A stretch of DNA of 59,172 nt from Patescibacteria group bacterium (GTDB lineage Bacteria; Patescibacteriota; Minisyncoccia; Minisyncoccales; RBG-13-36-15): contig JAHCSE010000006.1 in NCBI GenBank assembly GCA_018609195.1, positions 1-59,172 on the forward strand. Reading direction: 5' to 3'. The notes under the pieces were generated by a model, which worked only from the letters and a program-made list of their open reading frames with translations, did not search any database and was not told the DNA's origin. Positions 32,856-40,621 of this stretch are shown piece by piece. Position 1 is the stretch's first letter; each line of letters begins with the position of its first letter. Position numbers and translations under genes: made by a program.

Positions 32856-33593
32856 TTAAAAATCAGAAATCGTAGCTTTAGGAAGAAAATTTATCCAATA
32901 ATCAGAAATTCTTTTTAAAGAGAGAAAATATTTCTCATCGATCTTTAATTGAGAAATAATTCTCCATTCTTTTTCTATAATGAATCTCAGTATTTTTATT
33001 GTTTCTGGAGAAATTTCCTTTCCATTTTTAATTTTCTTAAAACAATTTTGACAAATCACTCCTCCTTCCTGAAAATTAAAATAAAGATTTTGAGGAAATA
33101 ATTCTTTCTGACAGAGAGAACAAATATGAAGTTCTGGTTTGTATCCTAAAAAAGAGAGGAGATTCCAGGTAAAATAGTAAAAAATTAATTGGGAATCGAG
33201 ATTTTGAGGAAAGGGAGTGTTTAATTTTTTTAAGGTCTCAATTAATAATTCCCAAATGCTTTCATCCTTTTCTTCTTTCCTCACTAAATTATCTAAAATC
33301 TCTGAAATTCTATAAGAGAGAGCTAATTTCTTTAAATCTTTCCTTATTTCTGAAAAATTTTCAATTAAAGAAGCATCAGTTAAGGTTTTGTAAGTTTTCC
33401 CTTGAATAAACTCAATCTCTGATAAATTAAAAAGGTTTGATTCTGATCTTAATTTTGATTTAATCTTTCTCATTGCTTTTGCCAAAATCTCAACTTTCCC
33501 AAAATCTTTAGTATAAATTGTCAGTAATTGATCAGCCTCCCCCCGATCTATTTTTTTTAAGACGATACCTTCACTTCGATAGTGAACAGCCAT
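32856..33593 (-). CDS. recO: DNA repair protein RecO
   Basis: GIVLKKIDRGEADQLLTIYTKDFGK (OB fold) and the CSLC...CQNC zinc motif. Confidence 0.85.
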   Translation of the reverse strand: MAVHYRSEGIVLKKIDRGEADQLLTIYTKDFGKVEILAKAMRKIKSKLRSESNLFNLSEIEFIQGKTYKTLTDASLIENFSEIRKDLKKLALSYRISEILDNLVRKEEKDESIWELLIETLKKLNTPFPQNLDSQLIFYYFTWNLLSFLGYKPELHICSLCQKELFPQNLYFNFQEGGVICQNCFKKIKNGKEISPETIKILRFIIEKEWRIISQLKIDEKYFLSLKRISDYWINFLPKATISDF

Positions 33594-33602
33594 ACCTTAC
33601 GC

Positions 33603-33980
33603 TTAGTATTTTCCCTTAAGACCCAGCTCCCTCTCCAAATACTCTCTTTGTCTCTTGAGCTTTGACTTTTCAGCACCGGTTCCGGCTTTATATTCTTCTC
33701 CTCTTAGCTCCCGAAGGCGTCTTTTAGCCTCACTTTCAGAAATATGGCTTTTGAATCTCTCCCATGGAAATACTTCTTCTACCATGGATTCCCGCTGCCT
33801 ACGAGTATATAATCCACCTGCCGTACCTGGGATAGAAGGCGAAGCTGTTCGCAATCTTCTTCTGAATGCACTTCTAGACCACTCGCTTTTTTCTTCAAAA
33901 AAACTCTTCGGTTTAGAAGGTGGTGGAGCTTTTTTAAATCTATCTCTTGAAACTTGTGGTCTTCTTCCAAAAATGCCCAT
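33603..33980 (-). CDS. Hypothetical basic protein (higher-GC), directly downstream of ileS
   Basis: 125-aa ORF beginning 2 nt after the ileS stop. Competing antisense ORFs are less plausible. Confidence 0.4.
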   Translation of the reverse strand: MGIFGRRPQVSRDRFKKAPPPSKPKSFFEEKSEWSRSAFRRRLRTASPSIPGTAGGLYTRRQRESMVEEVFPWERFKSHISESEAKRRLRELRGEEYKAGTGAEKSKLKRQREYLERELGLKGKY

Positions 33981-33982
33981 GT

Positions 33983-36900
33983 TTAAAGCTTTTTAATTCC
34001 TATCCATAATTTTTGTTTATCGACCTTTATTTCTCGTTCTATATCAAAAGTTTGTTTTAACTTTTCTCCCAATAGAAAATTTTTGGCCTTCGTTTCTCTT
34101 ACAATAAAATTTTTGTTTTTGGCAAAAATCTGGTTTAAATTGGGAGATCCAAAATATTGAATTAAAATTCTATCTTTCGGTTTCAAATGAGCCATCCGCC
34201 TCATCTCCTGAATGTTGCGAATAACCTCTCTCATTAATCCTTCTTCTTTCAGCTTAACAGGAATTTCAGTATTCAAAGCAATTTTAAAACCATTAGCACT
34301 TTCAATAATCCAACTTTTTCCTTTTGGTAATTTTGAAACCAATGTAACCTCTTTGATATTTAATTCCTCTGAAATTAAGCCCAGAAGCTCTTTTCCTTTT
34401 GCGGGTTTTACAATTTGTAATTCAGAAAGAGGCTGTCGTACTTTAATTCCTGATCTCATTCTCGCTTTTAACCCGAGAGTAACAATCTGGCGGGTTTCAT
34501 CCATTTTTTTATTTAAATTTTCATCAATTAATTTTCTATTGGCTTTTGGCCAATTTTCCAAATGGACCCCGAAAGAAAGCTTTCGGCTGCCTACGGGACG
34601 GGCACTTTTTGTTAATTGCTGATAAATCTCTTCTGCTAAAAACGGAATTAAGGGAGCAGTTATTTTACTGAGGGTTAAAAGTAAATAATGTAAGACGGAG
34701 GCAGCCTCCATCTTTTCTTTTTTCCTCGAAGGTGACTGAAATCTTCTCCTTGATCTTCTGATGAACCATTGAGAAAGATCTTTAATAACAAAATTTTCAA
34801 TAGTTCTTGCAACTTCTGTAATTTTGTAGCTCTCTAAATTTTTTGTTGTCTCTAAAATTAACTGATTAACTCGAGAAATGATCCATTTATCTAATAAAGC
34901 CTCTGATTTACGCTGATAGTTACGCTGCTCACCCCTGATATTTTTCTGCGTAAATCGGCGTCGATGTCCGCGTTTATCAGCGTATGTGTTGTAAAACACA
35001 TAACAGTTCCAAAAAGTCATAATAAATCTTTTTAGACATTCTGAAACTTCTTTTTCCGAAAAAAATTTTGGATCTCCAGGTTGATTTACTTTAAAGAAAT
35101 ACCAACGGGTGGCATCTGAGCCATATTTTTCTATTATCTGCCAGGGATCTACTACATTTCCTTTTGATTTTGACATTTTCTTCCCTTTCTCATCTAAAAT
35201 ATGCCCCAAAGAAATAACATTTTTGAAAACACGCCCCCTTGAAAGGAGAGTGGAGACAGCTAAAAGAGTATAAAACCAACCCCGGGTTTGATCAACAGCT
35301 TCTGAAATATAGTCTGCGGGAAATTGGATTTTTTTTTCAATAAGGTCTTTATTTTCAAAAGGATAATGGTATTGAGCAAAAGGCATTGAGCCTGAATCAA
35401 ACCAAACATCCACTACTTCTTTAACCCTTTCCATTAGAGTTTTGCATTTTAAGCATTGGAATTTTACATCATCTACATAAGGCCGGTGAAAATCTAACTC
35501 CATTTTTTCATTATACGGGAGTTTTTTAAATCGAATTTTACGAATTTCTCCAGTTCCAATATAATTCTTATGCCTCTCTTTAGAATGCCAAAGTTCCTCA
35601 TTTGTCAAACCCTTCATTGCTCCTTCTAAAAGCCATAAAGGATCACCATGACTCACAATTAAAATTGTTTTATCTTTATATTTCTTATCAATCTCTTTAA
35701 TTACATCTGCTATTCTTTTTTTACAATCTGACCAACTTTCCCCTCCTTGGGGCGCTTTGAAAAATCTTTCTTTCGGATCGGAAAAAGCTTTATAAAATTT
35801 TCTTTTTAATTTTCCGCGATATACTCCCAAATTTATATCTCTCAATTTTTTATCTAAATGTACTGTAAGACCTAATTCTTTTGCTAAGATTTTAGCAGTT
35901 TGTATAGTTCTAAGCATATCTGAAGAATAGATAATATCAATTTTCATTTTTTTAAGCTTTCTTGCTAATCTCTGAATCTCTTCCTCCCCTTTTTTTGTTA
36001 AATAAACTGGGGGGATCCTAGGCCGAGAATAGGTGAAATCTTTCTTTTTCGTCTGATAAATAGTTTCTCCGTGTCTTAAAATATAATATTGATTAGTTGA
36101 AAATTTTTGTTTTAATAAATCTTCTTTTGAACCGATTACTTCTGTATTTTTGCATGATTTGCACTGCCAAATAGGTAAAGGTGTTCCCCAGTATCTTTCC
36201 CGAGAAAAAGTCCAATCTTTGATCTCTCTCAACCACTCCCCAAATCTCCCTTTTTTTAAATGGCCCGGCACCCAATTTATTTCCTCGTTGTTTTTAATAA
36301 GATCCTTTTTGATTTTAGTCATTCTGATAAACCATGACTTTTTTGCGAAATAGAGGAGGGGTGAATCACATCTCCAGCAGAAAGGATAATCGTGCTCATA
36401 CAACTCAGCTCTGAAAAGAAGATTTCTTTTTCTTAAATCTTCAATAATTAAAGGGTCAGCATCTTTAATAAACATTCCTGCCCAATTTTTAACATCTTTT
36501 TTAAATTTCCCTTCCTCATTAACAGTCATTAAAACCGGTAAGTTATTCTTTTTACCAACTACCATATCATCTTCTCCAAATGCAGGGGCAACATGAACCA
36601 AACCAGTCCCCTCTTTTAAAGAGACAAATTCCCCTCTAATGACTTTGTAGCTCGTAGCTAGTAATTGCCGCCTTTGGCGAGCCTCGCCTTTGGCGGGGTA
36701 GTTTGGAGGATAAAGTGGTTCATATTTTAATCCAATTAAATCTCCTCCTTTAACTCTTTGAATAATCCCGCCTTTGATATTACAAGCTTCCATTCTTTCT
36801 TCAGCTAAGATTAAATATTCATCATTAATTTTTATTCTGGCATAAGTAAATTCTGGATTTACCGCTAGTGCCACATTTCCTGGAAGAGTCCAGGGTGTGG

Positions 36901-37597
36901 TCGTCCAAACTAACAGGTATGTATTTGGGAATTTACGATTTTGAATCTTAAATTTAACATATATTGCAGGTTCCCTTATTTTTTCATATCCTTGGGCTAC
37001 CTCATGTGAAGAAAGAGCAGTTCCACACCTTGGACAATAAGGGACAACTTTGTAATCTTTGTATAATAATCCCTTTTGCCAAATTTTTTTTATTATCCAC
37101 CACAAGGTCTCAATATAATCTGTTTCATAAGTAATATACGGATTTTTCATATCTAACCAGAAGCCGATTCTCTCTGTTAATTTCTCCCATTCTTCCTTGT
37201 AGTTCCAAACAGATTCCTTACATTTTCTGTTAAAGCGGGATATCCCATATTTTTCAATATCTTTTTTTCTTTTCAAGCCCAATTTTTTCTCAATTTCCAA
37301 TTCAACTGGTAATCCGTGAGTATCCCAGCCAGCTTTTCTCAAAACCCTAAAACCTTGCATAGTTTTGTAACGACAAATAATATCTTTGTAAACCCTGCTT
37401 AAAACATGGTGGATTCCGGGTTCTGCATTCGCAGTAGGAGGCCCTTCGTAAAAGACAAAATTTTTAGCCCTCTTTCGCTTTTCAATCGATTTTTCAAAAA
37501 TCTTATTTTCCCTCCAAAATTTTAAGATCTTCTTCTCCAATTTCGGGAAATTAACTTCCATATTCTTTAAATTATCATTATTTTTGCTTTTTTTCAA
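33983..37597 (-). CDS. ileS: Isoleucyl-tRNA synthetase (type 2) with an embedded histidine-phosphatase domain
   Basis: EPGIHHVL (HIGH region), KMSKSKGN, WTTTPWT editing motif and CPRCG/CWRC zinc sites. The listed start is TTG. ATG at 37561 (MEVNFPKLEKKIL) is an equally likely start. Confidence 0.93.
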   Translation of the reverse strand: MKKSKNNDNLKNMEVNFPKLEKKILKFWRENKIFEKSIEKRKRAKNFVFYEGPPTANAEPGIHHVLSRVYKDIICRYKTMQGFRVLRKAGWDTHGLPVELEIEKKLGLKRKKDIEKYGISRFNRKCKESVWNYKEEWEKLTERIGFWLDMKNPYITYETDYIETLWWIIKKIWQKGLLYKDYKVVPYCPRCGTALSSHEVAQGYEKIREPAIYVKFKIQNRKFPNTYLLVWTTTPWTLPGNVALAVNPEFTYARIKINDEYLILAEERMEACNIKGGIIQRVKGGDLIGLKYEPLYPPNYPAKGEARQRRQLLATSYKVIRGEFVSLKEGTGLVHVAPAFGEDDMVVGKKNNLPVLMTVNEEGKFKKDVKNWAGMFIKDADPLIIEDLRKRNLLFRAELYEHDYPFCWRCDSPLLYFAKKSWFIRMTKIKKDLIKNNEEINWVPGHLKKGRFGEWLREIKDWTFSRERYWGTPLPIWQCKSCKNTEVIGSKEDLLKQKFSTNQYYILRHGETIYQTKKKDFTYSRPRIPPVYLTKKGEEEIQRLARKLKKMKIDIIYSSDMLRTIQTAKILAKELGLTVHLDKKLRDINLGVYRGKLKRKFYKAFSDPKERFFKAPQGGESWSDCKKRIADVIKEIDKKYKDKTILIVSHGDPLWLLEGAMKGLTNEELWHSKERHKNYIGTGEIRKIRFKKLPYNEKMELDFHRPYVDDVKFQCLKCKTLMERVKEVVDVWFDSGSMPFAQYHYPFENKDLIEKKIQFPADYISEAVDQTRGWFYTLLAVSTLLSRGRVFKNVISLGHILDEKGKKMSKSKGNVVDPWQIIEKYGSDATRWYFFKVNQPGDPKFFSEKEVSECLKRFIMTFWNCYVFYNTYADKRGHRRRFTQKNIRGEQRNYQRKSEALLDKWIISRVNQLILETTKNLESYKITEVARTIENFVIKDLSQWFIRRSRRRFQSPSRKKEKMEAASVLHYLLLTLSKITAPLIPFLAEEIYQQLTKSARPVGSRKLSFGVHLENWPKANRKLIDENLNKKMDETRQIVTLGLKARMRSGIKVRQPLSELQIVKPAKGKELLGLISEELNIKEVTLVSKLPKGKSWIIESANGFKIALNTEIPVKLKEEGLMREVIRNIQEMRRMAHLKPKDRILIQYFGSPNLNQIFAKNKNFIVRETKAKNFLLGEKLKQTFDIEREIKVDKQKLWIGIKKL
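34901..34981. repeat. Repeat patch in frame inside ileS (encodes ADKRGHRRRFTQKNIRGEQRNYQRKSE)
   Basis: Interleaved inverted repeats gatttacgc (34905-13) with gcgtaaatc (34948-56), and tacgctgata (34909-18) with tatcagcgta (34975-84). Confidence 0.6.
35528..36091 (-). other. Histidine phosphatase (PGAM/His_Phos_1-type) domain inserted in IleRS (about aa 503-690)
   Basis: YYILRHGET, SSDMLRTIQTA, LRDINLGVYRG, GGESWSD and ILIVSHGD, all in frame between QCKSCK and FQCLKCK. Confidence 0.85.
36650..36703. repeat. GC-rich mini-hairpin repeat in frame inside ileS (encodes NYPAKGEARQRRQLLATS)
   Basis: cgcctttggcg at 36669-36679 and 36685-36695. The same 11-mer also occurs at 48672-48682. Confidence 0.6.
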
Positions 37598-37631
37598 ATA
37601 AAGAGGGGTAAAAAAACATTTACCCCTTTTT
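37596..37631. terminator. Hairpin terminator between argS and ileS
   Basis: 8-bp stem GGGGTAAA/TTTACCCC with T-rich runs on both sides. Confidence 0.6.
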
Positions 37632-37656: not shown

Positions 37657-39249
37657 TCACATTCTCTCTGGGGCGGAAATCCCCATTACATATAAAGTAT
37701 TTTTTAATACATTTTTAGTTGCTAAAACCAAACCTAAACGAGCCTCGGTTAACTCTTTATCTTCTGATAGCACCTTACAGTCTCGGTAAAATTGATGGAA
37801 AACAGTGGCTAAATCTATGGCATATTGAGGAATTCTCTGAATTTGGTAATCTTTTGCCGTATCTTCAACAACTTCAGGAAAGCGAATCAACTGTTTGATT
37901 AAATTTAGCTCTGGAGGATGACTTAATAAATGGAGGTTTTTGGTTTTTTGTTTTTGATTTTTGGTTTTCCGCAAGATGCTTGCAATTCTAGCATGGGCGT
38001 ATTGAACATAATAAACCGGGCTTTTAGCTGATCTTTCTTTGGCTAACTCAACATCAAATTCCATCTGGGTATTCAATGATTTCATTAAGTAAAAAAACCT
38101 GGCTGCATCCAGTCCCACTTCATCTATTAACCATTCTAAAGTAACAATCTTTCCTCTTCTTTTGGAAATTTTTCCCTTTTTTAATCTTACAATCTGAGAA
38201 ATTAAAATATCAAAATCTCCCCTAAAGCCTAAAATTTTAGCTGCAGCTTTCATTTTGGGAACATGCCCTTGATGATCTGCTCCCCAGATATTTATAATTT
38301 TTGAAAAACCTCTCTCAAATTTATCTTGATGATAAGCAACATCTGACAAAAAATAGGTAGGTTCTCCTGTCTGACGGATAATAACTTCATCTTTTTTAGC
38401 TCCAAATTTTGATATTTTTAGCCATTCTGCTCCTTCTTTTCGATAAACTAATTCTTTTTTTCTTAGCATATCGTAAACTTTCTTAATTTTGCTTTTTCTG
38501 TAAAAATTTTCTTCTGAAATCCACTTGTCAAATTTGATTTTTAATTTTTTCTTAATGAAATCTCTAATATCTTTTTGAATTCCCTGAGATAGTAAAAAAC
38601 CGGCCTCCCCTTCATCAGCTGCCAGTCTTAATTTCGGGCTTAATTTCTTAATTTTTGATTGTAAATCTTTTGTTAAGTAGGTAATTCCTTTCCCCAGAGC
38701 TGTTTTTCCTAATATTTTAATTTGAGAGTTTCCCATGGCATCATTAATGTAATATTCCCGAGTTACTTTATAGCCTGCTTTTTCTATAATATTGGATAGA
38801 CAATCGCCAAAAAAAGCTCCCCGGCCATTACCCAAATGTAAAAACCCCGTGGGATTTGCAGAAATAAATTCAGCATTAACTTTTTGATTTTTACCAATTT
38901 CTAACTTGCCAAATTCCTCTCCTTCCCTGAGAATTCCCTCAACTTCTCTTTGTAAGTACTCCTTGGAAAGAAAAAAATTGATAAAACCTGGTTCAACAAT
39001 TTTAACTTTCTCAAAAAGCTGAGAACCTAAAACCTGCAACCTAGAACCTAAGAGATTGGCTATTTCCATTGGGCTCATTTTCCCAATTCTTGCAATCTTT
39101 AAAGCAGTATTTGTGGCATAATCACCATGAATTTTCTCTTCAGGTTTTTCAACTAAAATCTCAGGAATTTTAAATTTAGTCAGCTTTTTCTCTTGCTGGG
39201 CTTTCTGGATAGCTTTTTGAATTAAATTTTTAATCTTTTCTCGTGTCAT
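37657..39249 (-). CDS. argS: Arginyl-tRNA synthetase
   Basis: SANPTGFLHLGNGRG (HIGH region) and C-terminal DALR anticodon-binding domain ending ...ISAPERM. Confidence 0.94.
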   Translation of the reverse strand: MTREKIKNLIQKAIQKAQQEKKLTKFKIPEILVEKPEEKIHGDYATNTALKIARIGKMSPMEIANLLGSRLQVLGSQLFEKVKIVEPGFINFFLSKEYLQREVEGILREGEEFGKLEIGKNQKVNAEFISANPTGFLHLGNGRGAFFGDCLSNIIEKAGYKVTREYYINDAMGNSQIKILGKTALGKGITYLTKDLQSKIKKLSPKLRLAADEGEAGFLLSQGIQKDIRDFIKKKLKIKFDKWISEENFYRKSKIKKVYDMLRKKELVYRKEGAEWLKISKFGAKKDEVIIRQTGEPTYFLSDVAYHQDKFERGFSKIINIWGADHQGHVPKMKAAAKILGFRGDFDILISQIVRLKKGKISKRRGKIVTLEWLIDEVGLDAARFFYLMKSLNTQMEFDVELAKERSAKSPVYYVQYAHARIASILRKTKNQKQKTKNLHLLSHPPELNLIKQLIRFPEVVEDTAKDYQIQRIPQYAIDLATVFHQFYRDCKVLSEDKELTEARLGLVLATKNVLKNTLYVMGISAPERM

Positions 39250-39310: not shown

Positions 39311-39763
39311 TTGGTGAAAGTCTTAACTGAAAATAAAAAAGCTTATTTTAACTACGAAATCCTGGAAAAATTTGAGGCAGGTTTAGTTTTAATTGGCCAA
39401 GAGGTAAAATCAATTAAATTAGGGAGAATTAATATAGCTGGATCATATGTTGTAATAAAAGAAAATGAAGTTTTCCTAATTGGGTGTCGCATTCCTCCTT
39501 ATCAACCAAAAAACGCTCCTCCAGATTACAACCCTGAAAGACCTCGAAAGCTCCTTTTAAAGAAATTAGAGATTAAATATTTAATTGGTAAATCAAAACA
39601 AAAAGGCTTGACTTTGGTGCCTTTGAGGGTGTATACTAAAAGAGGAAAAATAAAGCTTGAATTTGGAATAGCTAAAGGAAAGAAAAAAGTTGATAAAAGA
39701 GAGTTAATTAAAAAAAGAGATATAGAAAGAGAAATGAAAAGAGAGTTTAAATTAAGGGGGTGA
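39311..39763 (+). CDS. smpB: SsrA-binding protein SmpB
   Basis: NKKAYFNYEILEKFEAGLVLIGQEVKSI and a basic C-terminal tail. TTG or GTG start. Confidence 0.93.
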   Translation: MVKVLTENKKAYFNYEILEKFEAGLVLIGQEVKSIKLGRINIAGSYVVIKENEVFLIGCRIPPYQPKNAPPDYNPERPRKLLLKKLEIKYLIGKSKQKGLTLVPLRVYTKRGKIKLEFGIAKGKKKVDKRELIKKRDIEREMKREFKLRG

Positions 39764-40107
39764 CAAGAATCGACAGAAATTGAACCAAAAATAGGCAAGC
39801 CGAGTGTTCTCAAATCTCGCAAAACATTTGAGAATCGGAAATAAGTGCCAACTTATTCCAAAAACCCGCATTAGCTTACGCTTAATGCCATCTGCTTTAG
39901 TGATTCTCGATAGCTACAAGTCAGGTGTCATACATATCGAGATAGATGGCTCTTTTTAAGGTCTAAAAAAGAACTATTGAATCAAAAATAGACCAAAGAA
40001 GAAAGATTTTGCCCAATTAAAACTTTCTCCTTACTCTCAAATTGGGATAAGCTTGTAGATCTATTTTGGGAAAATTTCTGGACGCGAGCTCGCCCTCGCC
40101 ACCTCCA
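39756..40107 (+). ncRNA. ssrA: tmRNA (ssrA), with tag reading frame 39847-39885 encoding ANLFQKPALAYA
   Basis: 5' GGGGGTG pairs with 3' CACCTCC-A, including the G3:U70 alanine identity pair. T-arm-like GCGAG...CTCGC. The tag ORF GCC AAC ... GCT TAA follows AAUAAGU. It sits immediately after smpB. Confidence 0.85.
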
Positions 40108-40111
40108 CTGA

Positions 40112-40621
40112 ATTCTGTTCAAAAAACCTTTAGTCAACAATCAAATCAGGGCTCCTCGAGTAAGAGTCATAGATGAATCTGGAAAGCAGTTAGGGATTAT
40201 GAATTTACCGGAAGCGCTCCAAATAACCAGGGAGCGCAATTTAGATTTAGTGCAGGTTACTGAAAGAGTAGAACCCCCTGTTTGCAAAATTATTGATTAT
40301 GGAAAATATCTTTACCGAGAGCAGAAAAAGCAAAAAGAGGCAAAAAAACAAACTGGTCAATTAAAACAAATTCGAATCTCTTTTAAGATTTCCGTACATG
40401 ATTTAGAAACTAAAGCTAATTTAGCAGAAAAATTTTTAAAAAAGGGAAATAGGGTGTTAATAGCGATGCCTCTCAGGGGAAGGGAAAAAAGTCTCCGAGG
40501 ATTTGCCAGAGAAAAAATGAATAAATTTTTAGAAATTTTACAAAATCTTACCCCAATAAAGATTGAAAGAGAAATAAAATCAGAGCCAAGGGGATTAACA
40601 ATATTCATCGTTAAAGGCTAA
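40112..40621 (+). CDS. infC: Translation initiation factor IF-3, probably with an ATT start
   Basis: The frame opens at 40112 just after an in-frame TGA. The conserved N-terminal segment VNNQIRAPRVRVIDESGKQLGI lies upstream of the listed ATG (40199). ATT at 40112 is the first plausible start codon. Confidence 0.8.
   Translation: MLFKKPLVNNQIRAPRVRVIDESGKQLGIMNLPEALQITRERNLDLVQVTERVEPPVCKIIDYGKYLYREQKKQKEAKKQTGQLKQIRISFKISVHDLETKANLAEKFLKKGNRVLIAMPLRGREKSLRGFAREKMNKFLEILQNLTPIKIEREIKSEPRGLTIFIVKG

What the first reader, a model, noticed from the sequence alone, without database searches (positions are those of the whole stretch)
35528..36091. Complete, catalytically intact histidine-phosphatase domain embedded inside isoleucyl-tRNA synthetase
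**What the sequence shows.** The ileS ORF carries about 190 extra residues between the two CxxC halves of its zinc knuckle. The flanks read PIWQCKSCKNTEVIGSKEDL and FHRPYVDDVKFQCLKCKTLMERV.

The insert has the hallmark motifs of the PGAM-type histidine phosphatase fold, in the right order:
- YYILRHGET (RHG nucleophile)
- SSDMLRTIQTA (second Arg)
- LRDINLGVYRG
- GGESWSD (acid/base Glu)
- ILIVSHGD (second His)

There is no stop or frameshift, and composition matches the host gene. The synthetase itself looks functional, with its HIGH region, KMSKS, editing motif and anticodon-binding part all present.

**Why it matters.** This would be a housekeeping synthetase permanently tethered to an apparently active phosphatase. 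I am not aware of such an architecture being described.

**Possible roles (speculative).** Hydrolysis of a phosphorylated nucleotide by-product or alarmone made at or near the synthetase, tRNA 3'-end phosphate repair, or inactivation of a phosphorylated inhibitor.
Basis: partly seen in the sequence, partly recalled or inferred. Interest (0 to 1): 0.82.

Follow-up and report, generated by a model that had tools for sequence, protein, structure and literature searches.

The report
Phosphatase domain inserted inside isoleucyl-tRNA synthetase
The isoleucyl-tRNA synthetase of this tiny-genome (Patescibacteria) bacterium carries a complete, apparently active histidine phosphatase spliced into one of its surface zinc loops; in related species the same phosphatase is a separate gene sitting directly in front of the synthetase gene, so the two enzymes very probably work together, for a purpose still unknown.

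Summary
ORF 33983-37597 (-) is a type-2 IleRS (TIGR00392, 925 bits). About 205 residues (aa 496-700) replace a roughly 10-residue loop between the two CxxC pairs of the CP3 zinc knuckle. The insert is a His_Phos_1 domain (PF00300, E 6.5e-38).

**Conservation.** The catalytic set R508/H509/R563/E620/H650 and all four Cys are invariant in 121 homologues.

**Not an assembly artefact.**
- The 120 best database homologues all have the same architecture.
- So do 36 of the 80 retrieved species-representative loci, all from Paceibacteria/Parcubacteria-type MAGs.

**New finding.**
- In 32 further loci the same phosphatase (45-57% identical) is a free-standing ~190-aa gene.
- It lies immediately upstream of an insertion-free ileS; the median gap is -2 nt.
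- One such locus (L002) has the window's exact synteny: smpB | argS - [phosphatase] - ileS - x - recO.
- On the IleRS tree the fused and adjacent states interconvert at least three times.
- Every multi-domain hit is an IleRS.

**Interpretation.** I read it as a dedicated, catalytically active phosphomonoesterase partner of IleRS. The substrate is unknown. The closest relatives are small-molecule phosphatases (PhoE, PspA, CobC, GpgP).

**Novelty.** I found no paper describing it. It is present but unremarked in databases.

The "HIGH" motif is the swapped GIHH variant.

The parts
33983..37597 (-). ileS ORF: type-2 isoleucyl-tRNA synthetase with the inserted domain. It is 1204 aa from the TTG at 37597. 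The likely true start is the ATG at 37561 (1192 aa), which is the start of the public protein P0001.
   Evidence: A terminator-like hairpin at 37604-37627 overlaps the TTG.
35498..36112 (-). Inserted segment, aa 496-700: linker, His_Phos_1 domain, linker. It replaces the short CP3 loop of insertion-free IleRS.
   Evidence: Alignment to 1ILE, junction comparison with insertion-free relatives, translation check.
35582..36085 (-). His_Phos_1 (PF00300) domain core, aa 505-672.
   Evidence: E 6.5e-38. AF2 domain model has pLDDT 88.4. Foldseek TM is 0.73-0.77 to PspA, GpgP, CobC and PhoE.
36068..36076 (-). R508-H509-G510: RHG motif with the predicted phospho-accepting histidine.
   Evidence: Invariant in 121/121 (R, H) and 119/121 (G) sequences. 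Aligns with the RHG of PhoE.
35909..35911 (-). R563, the second phosphate-binding arginine.
   Evidence: Invariant in 121/121.
35738..35740 (-). E620, the predicted general acid/base.
   Evidence: Invariant in 121/121.
35648..35650 (-). H650, the second active-site histidine.
   Evidence: Invariant in 121/121.
36152..36163 (-). First CxxC of the CP3 zinc knuckle (C479, C482).
   Evidence: Invariant. [quoted passage not shown]
35444..35455 (-). Second CxxC of the CP3 zinc knuckle (C715, C718).
   Evidence: Invariant.
37406..37417 (-). Class I signature motif in its non-canonical swapped form, G61-I-H-H64.
   Evidence: The meaning of GXHH comes from PMC10485003.
35165..35179 (-). KMSKS loop, aa 807-811.
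37657..39249 (-). argS, directly upstream. In relatives the free-standing phosphatase gene lies between argS and ileS; in the window that slot is empty.
   Evidence: for the window. for the relatives.

Best explanation
**Shown.** This is the organism's type-2 IleRS. A complete histidine-phosphatase (PGAM-like, branch 1) domain has been inserted into the zinc-knuckle loop of connective-peptide subdomain CP3. The fold, the catalytic residues and the zinc ligands are all preserved.

**Also shown.** Relatives encode the same phosphatase lineage as a separate ~190-aa gene. It lies immediately upstream of an insertion-free ileS and usually overlaps its start. Fused and separate states are mutually exclusive at a locus and have interconverted several times.

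**Inferred.**
- The phosphatase is a dedicated 1:1 partner of IleRS in Paceibacteria. It is either co-translated from the adjacent gene or covalently built into CP3.
- It is catalytically active by the standard mechanism. H509 attacks a phosphomonoester to form a phospho-histidine. E620 acts as acid/base. R508, R563 and H650 hold the phosphate.
- The domain is held in a fixed pose on CP3. The fusion is always an internal insertion with conserved, gap-free linkers, never the much simpler N-terminal read-through fusion. I take this to mean that its position on the catalytic body matters.

**Speculative.** The substrate is met at the synthetase. The most plausible candidates are a phosphorylated adenosine nucleotide or a phosphorylated tRNA acceptor end that would otherwise block charging.
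For: **Domain identity and integrity**
- PF00300 at E 6.5e-38.
- The catalytic set RHREH is invariant in 121 close homologues.
- It is intact in 36/36 embedded, 35/36 adjacent and 14/14 unlinked copies. It is also intact in 77/84 multi-domain representatives at 50% clustering; 6 of the exceptions are truncated.
- Models are confident: the insert is mostly pLDDT >90 in the full-length model, including both junctions. The domain alone has pLDDT 88.4.
- Foldseek gives TM 0.73-0.77 to solved His_Phos_1 phosphatases.

**Real architecture**
- The 120 best homologues (56-66% identity, many sources) all combine PF00133 and PF00300.
- 36 of the 80 species-representative loci analysed do so as well. 280 stretches matched a single 9-residue pattern in total.

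**Linkage to IleRS**
- Free-standing homologues are 45-57% identical to the insert. That is as close as the inserts are to each other, whose mean pairwise identity is 51%.
- They sit directly upstream of ileS in 32 loci (36 copies). The median gap is -2 nt, and 29/36 gaps are at most 60 nt.
- L002 shows the identical synteny: IF3 / smpB | argS - phosphatase - ileS - small ORF - recO - DUF7619.
- No embedded locus keeps a free-standing copy within 6 kb.
- Every multi-domain hit among the 150 best representatives is an IleRS or an IleRS fragment with the insert at the same site.
- Adjacent-type ileS genes are nested among embedded-type lineages in 96-100 of 100 NJ bootstraps.

**Fixed geometry**
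- The linkers are conserved and almost gap-free (Q497, F499, N502, P694, N696, D702).

**Charge**
- IleRS-linked copies are basic (+7.9 and +6.2 net charge per 100 aa). Unlinked copies are at -0.2 (Mann-Whitney p = 4e-5).
Against: - No activity, substrate or interaction has been measured.
- The nearest characterised relatives act on small metabolites (PhoE, phosphoserine phosphatase, alpha-ribazole phosphatase, glucosyl-3-phosphoglycerate phosphatase). None is known to act on RNA or to partner a synthetase.
- I could not obtain model coordinates. The distance from H509 to the synthetic site or the tRNA path is therefore unknown.
- A subclade of free-standing copies is not next to ileS. It lies beside NTP-transferase, PD-(D/E)XK or MazG genes, so the family is not obligatorily tied to IleRS.
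- The charge difference is spread along the sequence, not localised at particular positions (surface location could not be examined), and the unlinked copies are mostly one clade.
- The insert evolves faster than the catalytic core: 51% against 73-76% mean pairwise identity.
- Nothing explains why IleRS alone among the synthetases would need this.
Confidence: 0.55

Rival explanations
1. Hitch-hiking metabolic enzyme. The domain is an ordinary broad-specificity or pathway phosphatase (PhoE-, PspA- or CobC-like) whose chemistry has nothing to do with IleRS. In these streamlined genomes it merely shares an operon with ileS. It was captured in a tolerant surface loop, gaining co-expression and stability but no mechanistic coupling.
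For: - The closest sequence and structure relatives are all small-molecule phosphatases.
- JGI names the free-standing form 'broad specificity phosphatase PhoE'.
- CP3 is structurally variable among IleRSs and so is probably tolerant of insertions (PMC7191050).
- NCBIfam has a model for an IleRS that contains an N-acetyltransferase (GNAT) domain, NF040702.
- Some family members are not next to ileS.
- The insert is less conserved than the core.
Against: - Adjacency with overlapping stop and start is kept across three deeply divergent IleRS subtypes.
- Fusions recur and involve only IleRS.
- The trivial N-terminal read-through fusion is never seen. Only internal insertions with conserved linkers occur.
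- Some homologues have added second or third copies inside IleRS.
Confidence: 0.3
2. Protein phosphatase. The domain removes a regulatory or toxin-installed phosphate from IleRS itself or from a nearby translation factor. The parallel is HipA/HipT-type kinases, which inactivate GltX and TrpS, and PGAM-fold protein phosphatases such as SixA, PGAM5 and Sts-1 (from my own knowledge of those systems).
For: Only indirect: it is tethered to, or co-translated with, a single synthetase, and the His_Phos_1 fold is known to include protein phosphatases.
Against: - No kinase gene is seen in the conserved neighbourhood.
- The best structural matches are small-molecule phosphatases with the usual cap region, not SixA-like minimal folds.
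- No phosphosite is known on IleRS.
Confidence: 0.06
3. Non-catalytic module. The domain serves as a structural or tRNA-binding appendage, using its phosphate-binding pocket and basic surface to grip tRNA without turnover.
For: IleRS-linked copies are markedly basic. One homologue, P0166, has lost the nucleophilic His (RAREH).
Against: The full catalytic set, including the acid/base Glu, is retained in essentially all complete copies. That includes free-standing copies and copies whose inserts are only 33-40% identical. Binding alone would not require this.
Confidence: 0.05
4. Artefact or selfish element: a chimeric assembly, a decaying ileS pseudogene, or an intein-like mobile insertion.
For: Some homologues do carry genuine inteins elsewhere in the protein (P0062, P0100).
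Against: - It is one open frame.
- The same junctions occur in hundreds of independent assemblies.
- Synthetase motifs and zinc ligands are invariant.
- The window protein has no Intein_splicing hit and no Cys/Ser...His-Asn splice junctions (sequence).
- The window holds no second ileS.
Confidence: 0.01

Closest known systems
Bacterial type-2 IleRS (IleRS2) with the non-canonical GXHH signature motif (e.g. Deinococcus, Streptomyces; PMC10485003)
   Same: - Whole-length homology to T. thermophilus and P. megaterium IleRS2 (E 1e-261 to 1e-256).
- Type-2 C-terminal domain (DUF5915).
- Zinc motif in CP3.
- Swapped G-I-H-H signature.
   Different: It carries about 205 extra residues, forming a second enzyme, inside the CP3 zinc knuckle. 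The IleRS evolution papers I read do not mention any such insertion or any Patescibacteria sequence.
PhoE/YhfR broad-specificity phosphatase of Geobacillus stearothermophilus (1EBB, 1H2E) and the related PspA, CobC and GpgP phosphatases
   Same: Same fold and the same catalytic Arg-His...Arg...Glu...His set. It is the best PDB sequence match (E 8e-18), with TM 0.68-0.77.
   Different: - Only 22-29% identical.
- It fails every NCBIfam equivalog cutoff: CobC 80.7 against 162.9, PspA 78.8 against 350, dPGM 76.9 against 225.
- The known enzymes are free-standing metabolic proteins. This one is embedded in, or operon-coupled to, a synthetase.
Free-standing His_Phos_1 genes upstream of ileS in Parcubacteria/Nealsonbacteria MAGs (e.g. 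P0340, P0356, P0384; annotated 'putative phosphoglycerate mutase' or 'histidine phosphatase family protein')
   Same: They are 45-57% identical over the whole domain with the same catalytic residues. They occupy the same chromosomal neighbourhood, argS-[phosphatase]-ileS-x-recO.
   Different: They are a separate polypeptide, and the partner IleRS has the ordinary short CP3 loop.
NCBIfam NF040702, 'isoleucine--tRNA ligase, N-acetyltransferase domain-containing'
   Same: It is a precedent for an IleRS that carries an unrelated enzyme domain.
   Different: The domain is different (GNAT). The window protein scores 333 bits against a cutoff of 1999, so it is not a member. I could not determine where the GNAT domain sits.
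Bifunctional RNase H / CobC-like acid phosphatase (Rv2228c type, NCBIfam NF005567)
   Same: A His_Phos_1 domain is fused to an enzyme that acts on nucleic acid. The window insert gives a weak hit (81 bits).
   Different: That protein is an end-to-end fusion, not an internal insertion, and its partner enzyme is different. The hit is below the cutoff of 326.

Membership tests
Isoleucyl-tRNA synthetase (class Ia, type 2) | Full-length match to the ileS equivalog model above its curated cutoff. | tested here: met
   TIGR00392 at 925.4 bits, cutoff 621.4. E 9.5e-261 to T. thermophilus IleRS 1ILE.
Isoleucyl-tRNA synthetase (class Ia, type 2) | Class I signature motifs HXGH and KMSKS. | tested here: met
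   KMSKS is at aa 807-811. The first motif is the non-canonical GIHH at aa 61-64, a variant documented as functional in IleRS2 only (PMC10485003).
Isoleucyl-tRNA synthetase (class Ia, type 2) | CP1 editing domain, anticodon-binding domain and type-2 C-terminal domain. | tested here: met
   The isolated editing-domain structures 1WK8 and 1UE0 match aa 203-405 (E 5e-41). PF08264 covers aa 903-1058 and DUF5915 covers aa 1096-1203.
Isoleucyl-tRNA synthetase (class Ia, type 2) | Charges tRNA-Ile and is the cell's working IleRS. | not testable with these tools
   The 59-kb window has no second ileS. The rest of the genome could not be searched.
Histidine phosphatase superfamily, branch 1 (PF00300) | Profile match above the gathering threshold. 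| tested here: met
   130.8 bits against 21.7, E 6.5e-38, covering profile positions 2-169 of 194.
Histidine phosphatase superfamily, branch 1 (PF00300) | Catalytic core: RHG His nucleophile, two Arg, a second His, and an acid/base Glu. | tested here: met
   R508, H509, R563, E620 and H650 are present, aligned with PhoE, and invariant in 121 sequences.
Histidine phosphatase superfamily, branch 1 (PF00300) | PGAM-like alpha/beta fold. | tested here: met
   AF2 pLDDT 88.4 and pTM 0.85. Foldseek probability 1.00 and TM 0.73-0.77 to 4IJ6, 4PZ9, 6NRU and 1EBB.
Histidine phosphatase superfamily, branch 1 (PF00300) | Phosphomonoesterase activity through a phospho-histidine intermediate. | not testable with these tools
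   Requires an enzyme assay.
Cofactor-dependent phosphoglycerate mutase (dPGM) | Match to the dPGM equivalog models above their cutoffs. | tested here: not met
   NF038349 at 76.9 against 225. PRK01112 at 34.6 against 320. PRK01295 at 32.4 against 316.
Alpha-ribazole phosphatase CobC / phosphoserine phosphatase PspA | Match to the equivalog models above their cutoffs. | tested here: not met
   TIGR03162 at 80.7 against 162.9. NF045917 at 78.8 against 350.
Intein | Splicing-domain profile and Cys/Ser ... His-Asn-Cys/Ser/Thr junction residues. | tested here: not met
   The window protein has no PF14890 hit. The junctions read ...DLLKQKFSTN... and ...NEKMELDFHRPY....
Plasmid-borne mupirocin-resistance IleRS MupA/MupB | Match above the exception-model cutoffs. 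| tested here: not met
   839 and 812 bits against a cutoff of 1900.

The most novel reading that the evidence does not exclude
The phosphatase is a third catalytic site of IleRS, next to synthesis and editing. On this reading it clears a blocking phosphate, or a pyrophosphate remnant, from the 3'-terminal adenosine of tRNA or from an adenosine-nucleotide ligand at the acceptor-binding face. Such damage is produced by ribonuclease toxins or by tRNA-CCA-pyrophosphorylating toxSAS enzymes (from my own knowledge of those systems). This would be an unrecognised 'substrate repair' function built into a synthetase, and it would explain why only an internal CP3 placement, or a co-translated partner, is selected.
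Probability: 0.12. Interest if true: 0.9.

Novelty: new variant of a known kind. Interest (0 to 1): 0.66.

Why it matters
Aminoacyl-tRNA synthetases are among the best-studied enzymes, and their accessory domains usually signal new biology such as editing, signalling or complex formation.

Here a whole second enzyme with an intact active site is nested in the catalytic body of an essential synthetase. It occurs across a large, uncultivated bacterial radiation. An independent genomic signal, the conserved overlapping gene pair phosphatase-ileS with repeated fusion, indicates that the pairing is selected and not accidental.

If the phosphatase acts on tRNA ends or synthetase ligands, it would define a new kind of quality control or repair coupled to tRNA charging. 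If it is a metabolic enzyme, it would be a clear natural example of domain insertion used for co-expression in minimal genomes.

Either way it gives a concrete, testable handle on Patescibacteria physiology. The protein is recombinant-friendly, H509A is an obvious control, and separate-gene orthologues exist for comparison.

Tried and rejected
**Rejected explanations**
- Misassembly or pseudogene. The frame is single and intact, and the same junctions recur in the 120 best homologues and in 36 of the 80 retrieved species-representative loci.
- Intein or mobile insertion. There is no splicing profile and no splice-junction residues.
- Phosphoglycerate mutase, CobC or PspA identity. All equivalog cutoffs are failed.
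- A second His_Phos or a second ileS in the window. None was found.
- Similar insertions in other synthetases. Every multi-domain hit among the 150 best representatives is an IleRS.

**Attempts that were uninformative or failed**
- A neighbour-joining tree of the 200-aa domain, meant to count insertion events, was too poorly resolved to use. I relied on the IleRS-core tree with bootstraps instead. The direction of change (insertion or excision) remains unresolved.
- A broad 25-sequence alignment was too diverse for the pattern scan (error). It was replaced by a 7-sequence alignment.
- Foldseek could not discriminate between substrate classes. All top hits have TM 0.73-0.77.
- I looked for a localised basic patch that distinguishes IleRS-linked from unlinked copies. 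The differences are spread over several helices.
- The tools return no model coordinates, so the position of the active site relative to the tRNA could not be measured.
- Five literature searches for this architecture found nothing relevant.
- Rfam found nothing in the GC-rich stretch downstream of ileS.
Full report

The minus strand carries one uninterrupted ORF, 33983..37597 (1204 aa from a TTG). A terminator-like hairpin at 37604-37627 overlaps that TTG. The public protein P0001 starts at the ATG at 37561. The true product is therefore probably 1192 aa. I use the 1204-aa numbering throughout.

- **Host gene.** Pfam finds tRNA-synt_1, Anticodon_1 and DUF5915, plus His_Phos_1 at aa 505-672 (E 6.5e-38, 130.8 bits against a cutoff of 21.7). 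NCBIfam places the protein in the ileS equivalog TIGR00392 (925 bits, cutoff 621).
- **Coordinates.** The finding's range 35528-36091 translates to aa 503-690 of this ORF.
- **Composition.** GC across the insert (0.30-0.32) lies within the range of the gene and its flanks.

**2. Where exactly is the insertion?**

Against T. thermophilus IleRS (1ILE), aa 14-495 align to Tt 7-477 and aa 701-1051 to Tt 488-821. About 205 residues therefore replace roughly 10.

The flanks are C479xxC482 and C715xxC718. In T. thermophilus this is the zinc-binding motif of connective-peptide subdomain CP3. CP3 differs in topology between solved IleRSs (PMC7191050). Insertion-free relatives read C..C...IGSIxELxxLSGKKIxDLHRPYID..C..C at this point.

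**3. Is the domain intact and under selection?**

- **Close homologues.** I aligned 121 sequences, the window protein plus 120 homologues at 56-66% identity. R508, H509, R563, E620, H650 and all four Cys are invariant. Both linkers are conserved and almost gap-free.
- **Wider sample.** The catalytic pentad is intact in 36/36 embedded, 35/36 adjacent and 14/14 unlinked copies from species-representative genomes. It is intact in 77/84 multi-domain cluster representatives. Six exceptions are N-terminally truncated and one (P0166) has His replaced by Ala.
- **Rate.** Mean pairwise identity is 51% in the insert, 73-76% in the catalytic core and 60% in the C-terminal domains. The insert is constrained, but less so than the core.
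- **Structure.**
  - The full-length AlphaFold2 model has pLDDT 81.8 and pTM 0.76.
  - The insert and both junctions are mostly above 90.
  - The domain alone gives pLDDT 88.4.
  - Foldseek matches it to phosphoserine phosphatase PspA, glucosyl-3-phosphoglycerate phosphatase, CobC and PhoE (TM 0.73-0.77, 22-29% identity).
- **Sequence relatives.** PhoE is the best PDB sequence match, with RHG, Arg, Glu and His aligned.
- **Not a specific known enzyme.** All NCBIfam equivalog cutoffs for dPGM, CobC and PspA are failed. It is a phosphatase-type member of branch 1 with unknown substrate.

**4. Artefact?**

No.

- The 120 best hits in the 5.8-billion-protein collection all combine PF00133 and PF00300. 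They come from JGI, ENA, NCBI and Logan assemblies named Parcubacteria, Nealsonbacteria, Paceibacterales or Patescibacteria.
- A scan of GTDB species representatives with one 9-residue pattern found 280 loci, of which 80 were retrieved.
- The window contains no second ileS and no second His_Phos gene.
- There is no intein signature.

**5. The main new result: the same phosphatase is ileS's upstream neighbour in relatives.**

An exhaustive search of 1.84 billion cluster representatives with the insert alone returned two kinds of close hit:
- IleRSs or IleRS fragments with the insert at the same site;
- free-standing ~190-aa proteins, 45-53% identical to the insert.

No other synthetase or partner protein appeared.

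Context look-ups showed the free-standing gene directly upstream of an insertion-free ileS. In L002 the order is L20-L35-IF3 / smpB | argS - phosphatase - ileS - small ORF - recO - DUF7619. The window has IF3 / tmRNA / smpB | argS - ileS(with insert) - small ORF - recO - DUF7619. The only difference is where the phosphatase sits.

Classification of the 80 species-representative loci:

| Class | Loci |
|---|---|
| Embedded in ileS | 35 (36 with the window) |
| Same-strand gene immediately upstream of ileS | 32 (34 copies; 36 with L001 and L002) |
| No ileS seen nearby | 13 (several cut by contig ends) |

- In the adjacent class the phosphatase stop and the ileS start have a median gap of -2 nt. 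29 of 36 gaps are at most 60 nt, which indicates translational coupling.
- No embedded locus retains a free-standing copy within 6 kb.
- Free-standing copies are as similar to the window's insert (50-57%) as inserts are to one another. They belong to one gene lineage.

**6. Evolutionary pattern.**

The host IleRSs fall into three subtypes:

| Subtype | Signature motif | States present |
|---|---|---|
| Window clade | GIHH | Embedded and adjacent |
| Second clade | HYGH (canonical) | Embedded and adjacent |
| Deep clade | GVHH | Adjacent only |

On an IleRS-core NJ tree (54 loci, 911 columns), adjacent-type genes L066 and L002 are nested among embedded-type lineages. So is the L059/L039/L045 group. 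This holds in 96-100 of 100 bootstraps. The state has therefore changed at least three times. I could not orient these changes.

Some homologues go further:
- tandem copies at the CP3 site (P0257, P0265) or upstream of ileS (L077, L078);
- a second copy just before the anticodon-binding domain (P0202);
- three to four copies (P0159).

No N-terminal fusion was seen, although stop-codon loss in the overlapping gene pair would create one trivially.

**7. Interpretation.**

- **Shown:** the architecture, its integrity, its spread, and the conserved adjacency and fusion with IleRS only.
- **Inferred** (gene-neighbourhood and Rosetta-stone logic): the phosphatase is a dedicated partner of IleRS.
- **Inferred** (superfamily mechanism):
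  - H509 forms a phospho-enzyme.
  - E620 is the acid/base.
  - R508, R563 and H650 bind the phosphate.
- **Inferred** (exclusive internal placement, conserved gap-free linkers, confident junctions): the domain has a fixed pose on CP3 and its position matters.
- **Suggestive only:** IleRS-linked copies are basic (+6 to +8 net charge per 100 aa) while unlinked ones are neutral (p = 4e-5). The difference is diffuse and phylogenetically confounded.
- **Speculative:** the substrate. My leading guess is a phosphorylated adenosine nucleotide or tRNA 3' end encountered at the synthetase.
- **Main rival:** an unrelated metabolic phosphatase that shares the operon and was captured in a tolerant loop.

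**8. Comparison with what is known.**

The host is an IleRS2 with the swapped GXHH signature. That motif was shown to confer mupirocin hyper-resistance in IleRS2 (PMC10485003).

Recent structural and evolutionary surveys of IleRS do not mention a phosphatase insertion or Patescibacteria. Five full-text searches found no description.

NCBIfam does model an IleRS with a GNAT domain (NF040702). Enzyme-in-IleRS therefore has a precedent, but the window protein is not a member. Database records call these proteins 'class I tRNA ligase family protein' or 'isoleucine--tRNA ligase' without comment.

**9. Verdict.**

The finding is real, well supported and widespread, and apparently undescribed in the literature. 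It is a new architectural variant of a known enzyme. There is independent genomic evidence for a functional link and no known function.

Noticed in passing
window 37406-37417 (-), aa 61-64: The class I signature motif is the swapped form GIHH instead of HXGH. In IleRS2 this variant was shown to give mupirocin hyper-resistance (PMC10485003). It is near-invariant in the window's clade. Related Paceibacteria IleRSs use HYGH or GVHH instead.
   Followed up: partly
window 37604-37627 (-), and start codons at 37597 and 37561: A terminator-like hairpin (AGGGGTAAA...TTTACCCCT followed by a T-run) lies between argS and ileS and overlaps the TTG that opens the longest ORF. The ATG at 37561 (MEVNFPK...) is the more likely ileS start and matches the public protein P0001.
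   Followed up: partly
window 33500-33980: A GC-rich stretch (0.42-0.44 against about 0.31 around it) lies just downstream of ileS. It holds a very basic 125-aa ORF (33603-33980, -) and an antisense 113-aa ORF. There is no Pfam hit, no Rfam hit, and no similarity to the 128-aa ORF at the same position in L002.
   Followed up: partly
window 39311-40110 (+): smpB (39311-39763) is followed at once by tmRNA (39756-40110, 121.7 bits), which overlaps its last codons. IF3 follows at 40199-40621. A tRNA lies at 2109-2192.
   Followed up: no
P0062 and P0100 (homologues): Some phosphatase-bearing IleRSs also carry an intein (PF14890). In P0062 it lies in the N-terminal catalytic half (aa 119-677). One essential gene thus hosts both an intein and an enzyme insertion.
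   Followed up: partly
P0202, P0159, P0257, P0265, P0219; loci L053, L077, L078: Extra copies of the same phosphatase domain occur:
- tandem pairs in the CP3 site (P0257, P0265), upstream of ileS (L077, L078), or in the free-standing forms P0219 and L053;
- a second copy inserted just before the anticodon-binding domain (P0202, aa 871-1061);
- a 1161-aa protein with three to four copies and only fragments of IleRS (P0159).
   Followed up: partly
P0166 (cluster representative): One IleRS-embedded copy has the nucleophilic His replaced by Ala (RAREH). It is the only complete copy found with a broken catalytic set.
   Followed up: no
model m26c195d88049, residues ~720-800 and 870-875 (P0001 numbering): In the full-length AlphaFold2 model the second half of the Rossmann fold has pLDDT of only 45-55. 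This region holds the DQTRGWFY segment and the stretch around KMSKS. The inserted domain is above 90. The cause may be a shallow, closely related alignment or genuine mobility.
   Followed up: no
loci L048, L055, L058, L060, L065, L069 (about 5.2-7.4 kb in each): One subclade of free-standing phosphatases is not next to ileS. It is flanked by an NTP-transferase gene upstream and a PD-(D/E)XK nuclease, MazG or DUF5320 gene downstream. These copies are charge-neutral, unlike the basic IleRS-linked ones.
   Followed up: partly
locus L001 7669-7998: In one Parcubacteria genome a pterin-4a-carbinolamine dehydratase-like gene (PF01329) is wedged between argS and the phosphatase-ileS pair.
   Followed up: no
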